Under the pieces are notes generated by a model. That model made no database searches. It was not told the origin of the DNA and worked only from the letters and a program-made list of their open reading frames with translations. From Candidatus Bathyarchaeota archaeon (GTDB lineage Archaea; Thermoproteota; Bathyarchaeia; Bathyarchaeales; Bathycorpusculaceae), in contig CAWAKC010000001.1 in NCBI GenBank assembly GCA_963782525.1, forward strand, positions 160,001 to 224,000: a stretch of 64,000 bases of DNA. Reading direction: 5' to 3'. A program made the position numbers and the translations under genes. Numbering within the stretch: position 1 is the first letter of the stretch; every line of letters starts with the position of its first letter. This document shows positions 57,686-59,412 of the stretch, piece by piece.

Positions 57686-58001
57686 TAGAAGAAGAAAAAC
57701 ACATTTCCTACAGAATTGCCGTCCTTCTTCTTTCAAATACACTACAAGCCCTCTTAGCTGAAAGAAGAAGACACAGAACTGCACACAGCCACTTTCTTCT
57801 TCTTTCAGAGAATAAAAGAAATCGGTTTTTCCCTAATAAAAATTTTTTATGCCATCAACTTGACTGAAAGAACAACAACACTGCACTGCCACTTGTTGTT
57901 GTTCTACCGATCAATGAAGCCAACCATTTAACGGGTAGAAGAAGAAGATTGAAAAATTTGCTCTTCTTCTTCTTTCAACTTAGGTTCCAGTCGAAAGAAC
58001 A
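57686..58001. repeat. Array of at least four triplet-arm palindromes plus a fifth interrupted by the IS (REP/BIME-like)
   Basis: CTGAAAGAAGAAGA/TCTTCTTCTTTCAG perfect 14-bp stem (57758-57808); GAAAGAACAACAA...TTGTTGTTCTACC (57866-57908); GGTAGAAGAAGAAGA...TCTTCTTCTTCTTTC (57934-57976). Confidence 0.8.
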
Positions 58002-58013
58002 CCTATGTGAAGT

Positions 58014-58197
58014 TTGACTATTTGGGTCTTTCTTCTATTCAATCTCTCCTAATTCCACGTCTATTCATTTCCTAGTTGACGACAAAGGCAAACACCTATC
58101 CGCCCACACCAAAGAGGCAATATGGCAACGCATTCAACCCTTCATCAATCAACAACACGTCCACAATCAAGGGACAGTTCTTTGCGGTGAAACACAT
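58014..58197 (-). ncRNA. Putative bridge/seek RNA in the 3' non-coding end of the IS
   Basis: Internal loop carrying AAAGAAC and TGTTGTT (matching the target flanks); second segment ATAGGTGTT and CGTCAAC (matching the element ends). Confidence 0.75.
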
Positions 58198-59187
58198 CTA
58201 AGGTTGATCATAAAACGGCCGCTTATTCTTAAGCACCGAAAAACAAACCACCAACAACTTCCTAGCAGCAGCCACCCTAGCGGTATTCTTCCCCTTCCTC
58301 CCAGCCAAACAACGATAAGAGCGGCTAATCCAAGTATCATACTTACTAACATGTGTTGAAGCGCACTCAATCATGATCCAACGCAGCCACCTACTACCCT
58401 CCTTAGTTATGTTTCCATGACGAACCATGCCTCCTGATTGATAAGTGGAAGGCACCAACCCAGCATAGCTGCAAAGCTTCTCAGCAAACGGAAAACGGCT
58501 AATATCGCCAATCTCACTCTTCAATAGAAGAGCCGAATAATAGCCAATCCCTGGAACAGTCATCAAAAGTTTAACATCTCCATCGACTTCAGCTTCACTC
58601 TTAAGCTCCTTAGACAACACCTTAATTTCTTCACTGAAAACATCGATAAGCCTCAAGTAAGATTCAACCGGATCCAAACCTAAGCCATGAAGCCAAACCA
58701 CCCCCGCCTTGGTCCACAAGCCATGATCCTCCGGCCACTTCAATCCTTGATAAGTCAGATAACTTTTGATTTTCACTCGCAGTCTAACTCTTTCCCTAAC
58801 TAGGAAAGCTCGTCTGCGAACCCTCTCTCGCAAAGCGCCTGTCTCCTCGTCAGGTACGTATGATAGTGGCAACCAATCCATCCTAAGCAGCTGTGCAATA
58901 GCTTTAGAATCCACGCGATCGCTTTTAATTTTAGCCTCAGCAATCAACTTAGTCTTCTTCGGATGAGAAACCACCGCGTCAAAGCCTTCTTTCTTTAGTT
59001 GGCGATAGAGTGATGCAACAGCTGTAGAAGACTCCATGGCGACTTTTCCAACTTTGTGCTGCGAGAGGTAAGAAGCTACTTTCTCATTCTCCATCCTTGC
59101 CTGATCTACAATCTTTCCTTCGGAGTTCAAAATAGTCGCATAAGTGCTATCCTTATGCACATCCAACCCACAAACCAAGGCGCTCAT
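58198..59187 (-). CDS. IS110-family DEDD recombinase/transposase
   Basis: GLDVHK, MES, KSDRVD (DEDD); PGIG, YAGLVP..QSGG catalytic Ser, ARKL. Confidence 0.96.
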   Translation of the reverse strand: MSALVCGLDVHKDSTYATILNSEGKIVDQARMENEKVASYLSQHKVGKVAMESSTAVASLYRQLKKEGFDAVVSHPKKTKLIAEAKIKSDRVDSKAIAQLLRMDWLPLSYVPDEETGALRERVRRRAFLVRERVRLRVKIKSYLTYQGLKWPEDHGLWTKAGVVWLHGLGLDPVESYLRLIDVFSEEIKVLSKELKSEAEVDGDVKLLMTVPGIGYYSALLLKSEIGDISRFPFAEKLCSYAGLVPSTYQSGGMVRHGNITKEGSRWLRWIMIECASTHVSKYDTWISRSYRCLAGRKGKNTARVAAARKLLVVCFSVLKNKRPFYDQP

Positions 59188-59412
59188 GATATGGCGTGAG
59201 CGCCCACGTCGTATAACACTTCCCATACCATCAACAACAAACAAAATTTTGACGTGCTGTTGTTCTACCACCAATCTCAGCAACCGACCATAAAGTGAAG
59301 ATAGGCCAAAAAAGGTAAACAGTTTCAGCTTAAACCAGCCATTTTATTCCCTGTGGGTTTAATAAATTGGCTTTAATTAGAGAAAAGCAAACTGTTTTGA
59401 AAGAGGACCCCC

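What the first reader, a model, noticed from the sequence alone, without database searches (positions are those of the whole stretch)
58014..58197. Readable target and donor guide segments in the IS110 3' non-coding end (bridge/seek RNA)
Seen on the minus strand: TTCA-ccgc-AAAGAAC-t-GTCC-cttgattgt-GGAC-g-TGTTGTT-gattga-TGAA is an internal loop between two short stems. AAAGAAC (58177-58183) and TGTTGTT (58151-58157) match opposite strands of the reconstructed target AAAGAACAACA and overlap at the AAC core. Further 3', ATAGGTGTT (58091-58099) and CGTCAAC (58075-58081, one G-T wobble) match opposite strands of the predicted circle junction CATAGG-TGTT-GATGG. Established: IS110/IS1111 recombinases use a bispecific ncRNA, located downstream of the gene in the IS1111 group. 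Inference: a compact (329 aa), apparently intact archaeal programmable recombinase whose natural target is a simple-repeat palindrome.
Basis: partly seen in the sequence, partly recalled or inferred. Interest (0 to 1): 0.8.

Follow-up and report, generated by a model that had tools for sequence, protein, structure and literature searches.

The report
Bridge RNA in archaeal insertion sequence

Summary
Window 58000-59231 (minus strand) is one 1232-bp IS110-family element of the IS1111 type. It has a 329-aa DEDD transposase, subterminal inverted repeats and a ~108-nt structured non-coding RNA (58192-58085) just after the stop codon.

- **Copies compared:** 50 related RNA copies from Bathyarchaeia and a few other genomes.
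- **Target guides:** AAAGAAC (58183-58177) is the reverse complement of the right flank. TGTTGTTG (58157-58150) equals the left flank plus core. Both change together with the flanks across 9 and 23 guide classes; 0 of 100,000 permutations did as well.
- **First donor guide:** ATAGGTG (58099-58093) equals the right end plus core, and its core follows the target core (TG, CG or AG).
- **Corrections:** the core is the dinucleotide TG, not AAC/TGTT. The circle junction is therefore AGG-TG-ATGG. CGTCAAC is not a guide; the likelier second donor guide is CCAU (58125-58122).
- **Not shown:** transcription and activity. The genome holds one copy beside 9 perfect empty targets.

This is a new member of a known kind and of moderate interest.

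The parts
58000..59231 (-). The insertion sequence: 1230-bp body (59231-58002) plus one copy of the TG core (58001-58000), 1232 bp in all.
   Evidence: Flanks abut with a 2-nt overlap at three empty paralogous sites in the same genome. A DNA contig of run X1 skips exactly 1232 nt (57999 to 59232) with 2 ambiguous letters. The same ends, ATGG... and ...CATAGG, occur in all relatives.
59232..59239 (-). Left target plus core, TGTTGT-TG (core 59233-59232).
   Evidence: Identical to the left target guide (LTG) at 58157-58150 (D7). LTG equals the own left flank at 6-8 of 8 positions in 22 of 22 non-redundant elements.
57994..58001 (-). Second core copy TG (58001-58000) plus right target TTCTTT (57999-57994).
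   Evidence: Reverse complement of AAAGAAC. Class-level covariation.
58201..59187 (-). Transposase/recombinase gene, 329 aa. A conserved in-frame ATG at 59226 would give 342 aa.
   Evidence: PF01548 (1.3e-20) and PF02371 (1.2e-23). NF033542 'IS110 family RNA-guided transposase', 235.5 bits against a cutoff of 140. The C-terminal half matches the ISCro4 and IS621 transposases in the PDB. The 342-aa frame is also open in relatives.
59218..59227 (-). Left subterminal inverted repeat TATGGGAAGT, 4 nt in from the end.
   Evidence: 9 of 10 complementary to 58013-58004 (ACTTCACATA); read.
58004..58013 (-). Right subterminal inverted repeat ACTTCACATA, 2 nt in from the end.
   Evidence: As above. The right end 58013-58002 is 100% identical within and between groups A, B and C.
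58085..58192 (-). Conserved core of the non-coding RNA (bridge/seek RNA): target-binding loop plus donor-binding loop. It starts 5 nt after the stop codon (58200-58198).
   Evidence: 108 consecutive positions (58180-58073) are identical to the G112 copy, while the whole element is 84% identical. The covariance model finds 50 copies. 95.9% of cells are paired and 11 of 14 pairs have changes on both sides; 0 of 500 shuffles reach this.
58185..58192 (-). Target loop, outer stem, 5' strand UUUCACCG. It pairs with 58147-58140.
   Evidence: Helix types in relatives: CCUCG/UGAGG, UCGCCG/UGGCGG, GCCCC/GGGGU, GCCCG/UGGGC, UUUCGUCG/UGAUGGAG.
58177..58184 (-). Right target guide strand CAAAGAAC. [quoted passage not shown]
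   Evidence: 23 guide classes: 129 of 207 positions match the own flank, against a permutation mean of 84 and maximum of 119; 0 of 100,000 reach the observed value.
58158..58176 (-). Target loop inner hairpin UGUCC-(9 nt)-GGACG.
   Evidence: All 5 pairs have changes on both sides and 99.1% of cells are paired (helix 1).
58148..58157 (-). Left target guide UGUUGUUG (58157-58150, last two nt = core), followed by AU (58149-58148), which equals the first two nt of the left end. The AU is handshake-like.
   Evidence: 9 classes: 63 of 72 positions identical to the own left flank, against a permutation mean of 36.4; 0 of 100,000 reach this. AU follows the guide in all rows with an intact loop.
58140..58147 (-). 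Target loop, outer stem, 3' strand UGAUGAAG.
58129..58134 (-). Donor loop, outer stem, 5' strand AAUGCG. It pairs with 58090-58085 (UGCCUU).
   Evidence: Helices 2 and 3. One pair alternates AU:19, GU:12, GC:9.
58119..58128 (-). Donor loop 5' strand UUGCCAUAUU. CCAU (58125-58122) is the candidate right donor guide, complementary to the first four nt of the left end (ATGG).
   Evidence: CAU plus 3 nt plus the stem is kept in all classes. Group D has UCAU with a left end starting ATGA. This is one covarying event only, so it is tentative.
58102..58118 (-). Donor loop inner hairpin GCCU-(9 nt)-GGGC.
   Evidence: 3 of 4 pairs have changes on both sides and 97.8% of cells are paired (helix 4).
58091..58101 (-). 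Donor loop 3' strand GGAUAGGUGUU. The left donor guide AUAGG+UG (58099-58093) equals the right end plus core. UU (58092-58091) equals the first nt of the right flank and is handshake-like.
   Evidence: The donor-guide core equals the target-guide core in 31 of 32 elements and the first 2 nt of the right flank in 30 of 31. The next nt equals flank nt 3 in 30 of 31, and the one after in 19 of 31.
58075..58081 (-). It is not a guide.
   Evidence: It lies in a tail that differs in groups B, C and D, although their ends are the same. The spacer 58084-58014 is only 34-58% identical.
57867..57880 (-). An unoccupied perfect copy of the 14-nt target (TGTTGTTGTTCTTT), about 120 nt downstream of the element, in the next palindromic repeat.
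   Evidence: Pattern search of the own genome: 9 exact and 21 one-mismatch sites, against 9 for the reversed control.

Best explanation
Window 58000-59231 (minus strand) is an IS110-family insertion sequence of the IS1111 type in a Bathyarchaeia genome. Its 3' non-coding end encodes a ~108-nt bridge (seek) RNA with two stem / internal-loop / hairpin modules.

**Target-binding loop**
[quoted passage not shown] Its last C pairs with the G of the core.

**Donor-binding loop**
- The 3' strand, AUAGG-UG, reads the right end plus core of the excised circle.
- A short CCAU in the 5' strand probably reads the first four bases (ATGG) of the left end.
- The one or two bases after each 3'-side guide match the recombinant junction, not the substrate: AU matches the left end and UU matches the right flank. 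This resembles the handshake guides of IS621.

**Reaction**
The DEDD/Ser recombinase, loaded with this RNA, would bring the circle junction ...CATAGG-TG-ATGG... together with the chromosomal site TGTTGT-TG-TTCTTT. That site is the right arm of a host palindromic repeat. Strands would be exchanged at TG.

**Shown:** the anatomy, the boundaries, the covariation of guides with flanks and of both cores with each other, and the compensatory stems.
**Inferred:** transcription, RNA ends, protein binding, catalysis, the handshake role and the CCAU guide.
For: **Protein.** PF01548 and PF02371. NF033542 at 235.5 bits against a cutoff of 140. PDB matches to the ISCro4 and IS621 transposases. D9, E52, D90, D93, S251 and G252 are invariant in a 6-sequence alignment down to 37% identity.

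**Boundaries.** Three empty paralogous sites in the same genome. A 1232-nt skip with 2 ambiguous letters in a DNA contig. The same ends with differing flanks in 22 elements.

**RNA conservation pattern.**
- Donor loop: 0.84 identity between groups A and B, against 0.70 for the coding sequence.
- Guide strands: 0.35-0.38.
- Spacer: 0.34.
- Right end: 1.00.
- A 108-nt identical run against a copy that is 84% identical overall.

**Guides.**
- The left target guide equals its own left flank at 6-8 of 8 positions in 22 of 22 elements.
- Over 9 classes the score is 63 of 72, against a permutation mean of 36.4; 0 of 100,000 reach it. The non-core 6 nt alone give 3 of 100,000.
- The right target guide over 23 classes scores 129 of 207, against a mean of 84; 0 of 100,000 reach it.
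- Fine-scale examples: GAAGAAC with TTCTTC, UAGAAC with TTCTAG, UUUUCACAC with GTGTGAAAA, UUAGCGC with GCGCTAA, UUUGUGGAU with ATCCACAAA.

**Cores.** The donor-guide core equals the target-guide core in 31 of 32 elements (states TG, CG, AG). It equals the flank in 30 of 31.

**Structure.**
- 95.9% of cells are paired and 11 of 14 pairs change on both sides; 0 of 500 shuffles reach this, and slid controls give 33-56%.
- The outer stem of the target loop has five or more helix types.
- Frequent U-G and G-U pairs (UG:37, GU:42, UG:22) would be mismatches on the other strand. This fits an RNA read in the transposase direction.

**Order of guides.** The top-strand-complementary segment lies 5' of the bottom-strand-complementary one. 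Siddiquee et al. 2024 report this order for IS1111 (PMC11187229, section 9).
Against: **No evidence of RNA or function.**
- No direct evidence of transcription, RNA ends or function. The laid runs are contigs only. RNA-library contigs of relatives (85% likeness or more) cover the region but cannot show strand, ends or even RNA origin.
- Rfam has no match at gathering score.
- The single-sequence fold is not more stable than shuffles.

**Guide mismatches.**
- The right target guide matches its own flank poorly in some elements: L036 3 of 9, L054 3 of 9, L041, L078, L030 and L058 4 of 9, and both L075 copies 2 of 9. For the L075 copies the match appears only after a 1-2 nt shift of register, judged by eye.
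- L071, dropped from the counts, has a candidate left flank (CCAGACTG) that does not match its guide.

**Caveats on the statistics.**
- The classes are related, so the permutation figures overstate independence.
- The alignment used for pair counts was fitted to the model.

**Weak donor side.** The right donor guide is only 4 nt, with one covarying lineage. The RNA segments CCAUAU and AUAGG can also pair with each other.

**Activity in doubt.** There is one copy in the genome beside 9 exact empty targets, so present activity is doubtful.
Confidence: 0.88

Rival explanations
1. Only the first module works as a guide. This would be a short 'seekRNA' as purified for ISEc11, ISPa11 and ISKpn4. The second module would be a protein-binding scaffold, and the ends would be recognised through the subterminal inverted repeats rather than by RNA pairing.
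For: - Siddiquee et al. found the target matches in short 82-96-nt RNAs and stress the subterminal repeats for IS1111 (PMC11187229, sections 6 and 9).
- The ends are invariant across groups A-C, so pairing with AUAGG cannot be tested by covariation here.
- The candidate right donor guide is only 4 nt.
- CCAUAU and AUAGG can pair with each other in the free RNA.
Against: - The two bases after AUAGG follow the core of the target guide and of the flanks in 31 of 32 and 30 of 31 elements, through three states (TG, CG, AG). A pure scaffold has no reason to do so.
- The next base follows the right flank in 30 of 31.
- Unpaired changes at the column opposite AUAGG (U to A or G) are not compensated. 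This argues against a conserved helix between the two segments.
- L075b has AUAGA together with a right end ...CATAGA.
Confidence: 0.08
2. The element is a dead relic. The RNA anatomy is inherited, but this copy no longer moves, so it is not a working 'programmable recombinase'.
For: - A single copy in a 2.87-Mb genome that is 95.8% complete, while 9 exact and 21 one-mismatch copies of the 14-nt target stand empty. One lies about 120 nt away.
- Many relatives are 5'-truncated or internally deleted.
Against: - The frame is open, with all invariant residues.
- The guides still match both flanks at 8 of 8 and 7 of 9.
- The ends are intact.
- At least 10 different insertion sites of group A occur in the genus.
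- This rival concerns activity, not identity. It is compatible with the best explanation.
Confidence: 0.3
3. No RNA is involved. The conserved 3' region is a DNA-level binding site or DNA hairpin for the transposase, and the similarity to the flanks is a by-product of insertion into repeats.
For: - No transcript has been shown.
- Within one element, 9-10-nt repeats of this kind are not rare: 12 families in 1256 nt.
Against: - Guide strands change with the flanks in classes that target unrelated sequences (TGTTGTTG, TCAGACTG, TTAGCGCG, TGCGCGCG, TGAGAGAG, TTAGTTAG).
- The stems keep pairing through G-U pairs, which are strand-specific.
- The protein family is the one shown by experiment to be RNA-guided (PMC11208160, PMC11187229).
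Confidence: 0.03

Closest known systems
IS1111-group elements with a 3' seekRNA or bridge RNA (ISEc11, ISPa11, ISKpn4; Siddiquee et al. 2024, PMC11187229; Durrant et al. 2024, PMC11208160, section 'Diverse IS110s encode bridge RNAs')
   Same: - A DEDD transposase of about 330-350 aa with the GL-P----SG motif.
- Subterminal inverted repeats with short terminal extensions.
- The long non-coding region lies downstream of the gene.
- The RNA segment complementary to the top strand lies 5' of the one complementary to the bottom strand.
- Insertion is into palindromic repeats without a target duplication beyond the core.
   Different: - The host is an archaeon (Bathyarchaeia).
- The donor nucleotides sit in a simple internal loop. 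Durrant et al. note a multi-loop for many IS1111 members.
- The RNA starts 5 nt after the stop codon.
- Phylogenetic placement among ISfinder IS1111 members was not tested, because no ISfinder set was at hand.
IS621 bridge RNA (IS110 group; Durrant 2024; Hiraizumi 2024, PMC11208158)
   Same: - Two loops, each with a 5' and a 3' guide reading opposite strands on either side of a 2-nt core.
- Conserved donor loop and variable target loop.
- One or two bases after the 3'-side guide of each loop match the partner DNA after exchange (handshake guides).
- The C-terminal domain matches 8wt6 (E = 1.7e-14).
   Different: - The RNA lies in the right end, not the left.
- The order of left and right guides along the RNA is reversed relative to the transposase direction.
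- The core is TG, CG or AG, not CT.
- The guide for the right target covers only the second core base in most classes.
- The right donor guide appears to be only 4 nt.
- The RNA is about 108 nt, against 177 nt.
Archaeal IS110-family recombinases in general (662 in 2,835 archaeal genomes; bioRxiv 10.1101/2024.06.21.599552. ISHvo9 and ISHvo10 are named in PMC11187229)
   Same: The same protein family in archaea. The preprint's authors interpret it as acquired by several horizontal transfers.
   Different: Those passages describe the proteins only. In the passages I read, no archaeal guide RNA is dissected. No paper in two searches holds both 'Bathyarchaeota' and the bridge-RNA terms.

Membership tests
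IS110 family (DEDD, RNA-guided transposase) | N-terminal DEDD_Tnp_IS110 (PF01548) plus C-terminal Transposase_20 (PF02371). | tested here: met
   E = 1.3e-20 and 1.2e-23, both above the gathering scores. NF033542 at 235.5 bits, cutoff 140.
IS110 family (DEDD, RNA-guided transposase) | Catalytic D-E-D-D and the Ser-Gly of the G--P----SG motif. | tested here: met
   D9, E52, D90, D93, S251 and G252 are invariant in alignment A2. The protein reads GLVPSTYQSG. The motif is quoted from PMC11187229, section 6. Assigning the four acidic residues as the catalytic ones is by position, not by structure.
IS1111 group | Subterminal inverted repeats of 7-17 bp with short terminal extensions. | tested here: met
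   TATGGGAAGT (59227-59218) against ACTTCACATA (58013-58004): 9 of 10, set 4 and 2 nt in from the ends. The range is quoted from PMC11208160, section 12.
IS1111 group | The longer non-coding region and the guide RNA lie downstream of the transposase gene. | tested here: met
   44 nt upstream (59231-59188) against 199 nt downstream (58200-58002, stop codon included). The covariance-model hits lie 3' of the gene wherever the gene is kept upstream of the hit (some hits are gene-less fragments).
IS1111 group | The transposase clusters with IS1111 members in a phylogeny. | not tested
   No ISfinder reference set was available. The length of 329 (or 342) aa lies at the edge of the 330-350 aa quoted for IS1111.
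Bridge RNA / seekRNA | Target loop: two segments that pair with opposite strands of the target, overlap at the core, and covary with insertion sites. | tested here: met
   Exceptions are listed in the Against line.
Bridge RNA / seekRNA | Donor loop: two segments that pair with the right end and the left end around the same core. | tested here: inconclusive
   The left donor guide is AUAGG plus core, and its core covaries in 31 of 32 elements. The right donor guide (C/U)CAU is 4 nt, with one covarying lineage (group D, ATGA). The ends are otherwise invariant.
Bridge RNA / seekRNA | The RNA is transcribed, binds the recombinase and is needed for recombination. | not testable with these tools
   Only assembled contigs of RNA libraries could be laid. 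They show neither strand nor ends.
Bridge RNA / seekRNA | Handshake guides: bases next to a guide that match the partner DNA after strand exchange. | tested here: inconclusive
   The base after the donor-guide core equals the first base of the right flank in 30 of 31 elements (states T, C, G), and the second in 19 of 31. AU after the target guide equals the left-end AT in all, but never varies. The function was not tested.

The most novel reading that the evidence does not exclude
This Bathyarchaeia lineage may be a naturally reprogrammed archaeal bridge-recombinase family with an unusually compact RNA of about 108 nt, probably cut from the 3' end of the transposase message.

- **Handshake on the mirror side.** Handshake positions sit beside the guides that read the left target and the right end. 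This is the mirror of IS621.
- **Built-in decay route.** The DNA that encodes the left target guide is a 10-bp copy of the element's own left junction. It acts as an internal half-site. Deletion between the two copies would leave the transposase-less 3' remnants seen in several genomes.
Probability: 0.3. Interest if true: 0.5.

Novelty: new member of a known kind. Interest (0 to 1): 0.35.

Why it matters
- **Extends the mechanism to archaea.** The work gives a fully dissected guide RNA for an IS110/IS1111-type recombinase in archaea, in uncultured soil and peat Bathyarchaeia. The mechanism has so far been worked out in bacteria.
- **A natural covariation set.** At least 9 left-guide and 23 right-guide classes on one conserved scaffold fix the register of each guide, the 2-nt core and the likely handshake positions. 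This is the information needed to reprogram the system.
- **A compact pair.** 329 aa and about 108 nt of RNA make it a candidate for testing.
- **Genome annotation.** It explains one mobile element and its palindromic repeat target.

It does not change the known picture of how these elements work.

Tried and rejected
**Negative or uninformative searches**
- **Rfam.** Nine weak matches (E 0.22-7.6), all far below gathering scores, to plant microRNA, psbA and other families. They are caused by the AAG/CTT hairpin repeats. No bridge-RNA family was hit.
- **Single-sequence folding.** z = +0.95. No support, and the minimum-free-energy structure pairs the guide with the 3' tail.
- **RNAalifold on the MAFFT alignment.** It pairs CCAUAU with AUAGG. 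I rejected this as the working structure because changes at that column are not compensated.

**Readings considered and dropped**
- **A long-range helix** between GAUUGA(U)G.. after the left guide and the 3' tail. It is possible in groups A, B and C but absent in L017. I dropped it in favour of the outer stem, which covaries in all classes.
Groups B, D and E, and L065, L062, L078 and L037, allow only a 2-nt overlap.
- **CGTCAAC as a donor guide.** Rejected; see the observation check.
- **An archaeal TATA-like TTTTATGA about 25 nt upstream of the RNA.** It is present in groups A and B only, inside conserved codons, and absent in D and E. It is not used as evidence.

**Sequencing runs**
- All shares were under 0.2, and only contigs could be laid.
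- RNA-library contigs from three studies overlap 57995-58245 at 85% likeness or more. This does not show transcription.
- No circle junction was seen.
- Parts without cover say nothing.

**Distant homologues**
Distant homologues L074, L077 and L080-L087 gave no covariance-model hit at E of 1 or below (L080, L083 and L084 were searched only), so covariation at the ends could not be extended.

**Rows dropped before the counts**
- Of 50 hits I left out L035, L038, L039, L044, L046 (2 rows), L055 and L057 (truncated, no intact target loop); L052, L072 and L088 (no right end found); L089 (left end not found); and L071 (left end doubtful, and its candidate flank disagrees with its guide). I then merged identical rows: 34 were kept, 22 with a left flank and 33 with a right flank.
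- The same list except that L057 was kept, since it has a donor loop and a right flank; its one LTG-core/LDG-core disagreement (AG vs TG) comes from that fragment's lack of a real target loop. After merging identical rows, 32 were counted.

**Papers**
- PMC11187229: outline and sections 6, 9 and 13.
- PMC11208160: section 12 and searched passages.
- PMC11208158, PMC13626964 and 10.1101/2024.06.21.599552: searched passages only.
- All other titles: search listings only.
- No supplements were seen. The supplementary tables of Durrant et al. and of the Nop5 preprint may already list Bathyarchaeia elements.
Full report
**What is there**

On the minus strand of the window, an open frame (58198-59283) holds a 329-aa protein starting at 59187.
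- It carries DEDD_Tnp_IS110 (E = 1.3e-20) and Transposase_20 (E = 1.2e-23).
- It scores 235.5 bits, against a cutoff of 140, on NCBIfam NF033542 'IS110 family RNA-guided transposase'.
- Its C-terminal half matches the solved ISCro4 and IS621 transposases (E = 1.6e-16 and 1.7e-14).
- D9, E52, D90, D93, S251 and G252 are invariant in an alignment reaching 37% identity.
- The protein carries GLVPSTYQSG, the GL-P----SG motif that Siddiquee et al. give for IS1111 transposases (PMC11187229, section 6).

**Boundaries and core**

The element is single-copy in its 2.87-Mb genome, but its two flanks recur side by side at three other places: C2, C10 and C11.
- The sequences of those sites show that the element sits in the right arm of a palindromic repeat (AGAACAACA(ACA)-loop-TGTTGTTGTTCT), which is followed by a second AAG/CTT hairpin.
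- Two of the three empty sites read exactly as the window's left flank plus right flank with a 2-nt overlap.
- The left junction is ...TGTTGT-TG|ATGG (59239-59228). The right junction is CATAGG|TG-TTCTTT (58007-57994).
- The element is therefore 59231-58002 plus one TG, 1232 bp in all.
- A DNA contig of run X1 skips exactly 1232 nt (57999 to 59232) with two ambiguous letters.
- In relatives the overlap can only be 2 nt in groups B, D and E and in several members of groups A and C.
The junction should read AGG-TG-ATGG.
- Subterminal inverted repeats TATGGGAAGT and ACTTCACATA (9 of 10) lie 4 and 2 nt in from the ends.
- The upstream non-coding part is 44 nt and the downstream part 199 nt (stop codon included).
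- These are the IS1111-type features quoted in PMC11208160 (section 12) and PMC11187229.

**Relatives**

- A protein search of 201 genomes of the order found 12 with a match at E of 1e-20 or below, own genome included.
- The 206-nt 3' end found 46 places in 29 of 120 genomes of the genus.
- A scan of one genome per species found 410 relatives. The closest (85-89% identity) are in records titled Candidatus Bathyarchaeota or Bathyarchaeia archaeon.
- Two of these named loci (L079, L060) are identical, flanks included, to loci from 'same genus' genomes (L042, L033). So the host is a Bathyarchaeia archaeon.
- The copy in G112 is 84% identical over 1248 nt, yet 108 consecutive positions (window 58180-58073) are identical.

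Region by region:

| Region | Group A vs B | Within group A | Note |
|---|---|---|---|
| Coding sequence | 0.70 | 0.84 | |
| Donor loop | 0.84 | 0.91 | |
| Two target-guide strands | 0.35 and 0.38 | 0.78 and 1.00 | |
| Spacer 58084-58014 | 0.34 | 0.58 | 0.34-0.58 across all comparisons |
| Right end | 1.00 | 1.00 | 1.00 throughout |

A conserved donor module beside a hypervariable target module is the pattern described for bridge RNAs.

**Structure**

I built a covariance model from 20 genus copies. It found 50 copies in 64 loci at E of 0.1 or below.
- On that alignment, which is fitted to the model, 95.9% of cells pair, against 84.9% in shuffles and 33-56% when the partner is slid.
- 11 of 14 pairs have changes on both sides; 0 of 500 shuffles reach this.
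- The target-loop hairpin runs through UGUCC/GGACG, UGCCC/GGGCG, UGACC/GGUCG, UGGCC/GGCCG, UGCGG/CCGCG and UGGCU/AGCCG.
- The donor-loop hairpin runs through GCCU/GGGC, GCUG/CAGC, GCCG/CGGC, GCGG/CCGC and GACC/GGUC.
- The outer stem of the target loop was not in the model. I scored it separately: 5-9 bp in nearly all copies, with at least five sequence types.
- In the window it is UUUCACCG/UGAUGAAG with one C-A mismatch. L059 restores that pair.
- Frequent U-G and G-U pairs fit the transposase-sense strand only.
- The single-sequence fold is not significant, and Rfam has no family for it.

**Target guides**

Durrant et al. define the terms (PMC11208160). [quoted passage not shown] - Here the 8 nt right after the inner hairpin (UGUUGUUG, 58157-58150) equal the last 8 nt of the left flank, core included.
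- This holds at 6-8 of 8 positions in 22 of 22 non-redundant elements: 8 of 8 in 11, 7 in 7 and 6 in 4.
- The nine guide classes are TGTTGTTG, TCAGACTG, AGAGACTG, TTAGCGCG, GTCACCCG, TTAGCACG, TGCGCGCG, TGAGAGAG and TTAGTTAG.
- Together they score 63 of 72 against their own flanks. The permutation mean is 36.4 and the maximum 60; 0 of 100,000 reach the observed value. The six non-core positions alone give 3 of 100,000.
- The 9 nt before the hairpin (GCAAAGAAC) are the reverse complement of the right flank, read from the second core base.
- The 23 classes score 129 of 207, against a mean of 84 and a maximum of 119; 0 of 100,000 reach it.
- Per element the score ranges from 9 of 9 (4 elements) down to 2 of 9 (2 elements). 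The poor ones are L036, L041, L054, L078, L030, L058 and the two L075 copies. For the L075 copies an 8-nt and a 6-nt match appear after a shift of 1-2 nt, which I judged by eye.
- Classes are related to one another, so these figures overstate independence. Still, the guides of groups A, B, C, D and E have nothing in common beyond the core.
- The order, with the top-strand-complementary segment first, is the one reported for IS1111 and the reverse of IS110.

The overlap of the two guides is the single core G (two bases in some group B insertions).

**Donor guides**

- AUAGG-UG (58099-58093) equals the last five bases of the right end plus the core.
- Its core equals the target-guide core in 31 of 32 elements, through TG, CG and AG. 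It equals the first two bases of the right flank in 30 of 31. So this module reads the core too.
The two extra bases match the right flank, not the circle.
- The base after the core equals the first flank base in 30 of 31 elements (T, C or G). The next one does so in 19 of 31.
- Likewise, the AU that follows every left target guide equals the first two bases of the left end.
- This mirrors the handshake guides of IS621, which pair with the partner DNA after strand exchange (PMC11208158, PMC13626964; passages).
- Here the role is an inference.

- The better candidate is (C/U)CAU, three bases before the donor hairpin (58125-58122). It is complementary to ATGG at the start of the left end.
- Group D, whose left end starts ATGA, has UCAU.
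- This is only four bases and one covarying lineage, so it stays tentative.
- Durrant et al. also found an irregular right-donor pairing in IS621.

**Activity and expression**

- The genome holds 9 exact and 21 one-mismatch copies of the 14-nt target, against 9 for the reversed control. One lies at 57867-57880. Yet there is only one element.
- At least ten different group-A insertion sites exist in the genus. So the lineage has moved, but this copy may be quiet.
- Runs holding near-identical words all had shares under 0.2.
- Laid contigs from three RNA libraries overlap the RNA region at 85% likeness or more. Contigs show neither strand nor ends nor RNA origin.
- A TATA-like motif upstream of the RNA is limited to groups A and B and lies in conserved codons.
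- The RNA begins 5 nt after the stop codon. I therefore think processing from the transposase message is as likely as a promoter of its own.

**Comparison and novelty**

- This is a member of the IS110 family and, by anatomy, of the IS1111 group. Its RNA works on paper like the published bridge/seek RNAs.
- Archaeal IS110 recombinases are on record: 662 in 2,835 archaeal genomes (10.1101/2024.06.21.599552, passages).
- Bridge RNAs were predicted in 93% of ISfinder IS1111 elements.
- Two literature searches found no paper that combines Bathyarchaeota with bridge-RNA terms. I could not see supplementary tables.
- I rate it a new member of a known kind and of moderate interest. Its value lies in the clean natural covariation set and in the extension to archaea, not in a new principle.

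Noticed in passing
window 57865-57912 and 57940-57990; 57750-57812; G000 C2:49957-50046, C10:38227-38296, C11:25560-25645: A composite host repeat family. It consists of an AGAACAACA(ACA)-loop-TGTTGTTGTTCT hairpin followed by a GAAAGAAGAAGAAG-loop-CTTCTTCTTCT hairpin. These hairpins cause the weak Rfam 'microRNA/psbA' matches. The 14-nt target inside the first hairpin occurs 9 times exactly in the genome.
   Followed up: partly
L035, L039, L044 (also G112 C32 and C12, G229 C9, C13 and C67): Transposase-less 3' remnants. In L035, L039 and L044 a genomic left-target-like sequence (..TGTTGTTG..TTTTGTTG) runs straight into ATTGATGAAGG.., that is, the element from just after its left target guide. 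The guide DNA plus AT (58157-58148) is a 10-bp direct repeat of the left junction (59239-59230; D7). A deletion or 'half-site' recombination between the two copies would give exactly these remnants.
   Followed up: partly
L051: A miniature derivative of about 230 bp. The first ~133 nt of the element are joined to the last ~100 nt, both ends are intact, and it lies between ..TTGTTTTTG and TGTTCTTTC flanks. It is a MITE-like internal deletion without the transposase or the target loop.
   Followed up: no
L018, L019, L020 (genomes G193, G056, G165, same family): A second IS110-family lineage (35-41% protein identity) with a long 5' non-coding region and ends TTTATGAAGAC.../...GTCTTTCATGAG as read (left end printed there as TTTATGAAAGAC). 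The 9 nt left of the element recur inside the 5' region: GTTGTTGAC in L018 and L019, GAAGTAGAT in L020. This looks like an upstream, IS110-type bridge RNA whose left guide covaries with the flank. I read this by eye.
   Followed up: partly
L075 (record titled Candidatus Hadarchaeum sp.): Two related elements in tandem, each with its own RNA (1550-1665 and 2827-2941). The second sits in a GACACCGAAAG direct repeat next to the first, and its left guide UCCGAAAG matches that repeat.
   Followed up: no
window 59226-59188: An in-frame ATG at the sixth base of the left end would extend the transposase to 342 aa (MGSV..RSRH.MSA). The frame is open in groups A and B too. A small GGCG-CTCA-CGCC hairpin lies in the same stretch. 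It is unclear whether the extension is translated.
   Followed up: no
run X1, contig record 1: One 373-nt DNA contig holds a left end of the element facing outward from the left arm of the palindrome, next to an empty right arm. This is a copy inserted in the opposite orientation into the other arm. It fits the guide variant UAGAAC, which reads GTTCTA, the left arm on the other strand.
   Followed up: no
L071: A possible chimera. The RNA and right flank are of group C (guide UUAGCGCG), but the nearest left-end motif is preceded by CCAGACTG, a group-B-type left flank. One search picked a different, poorer left end. I left this locus out of the counts.
   Followed up: no
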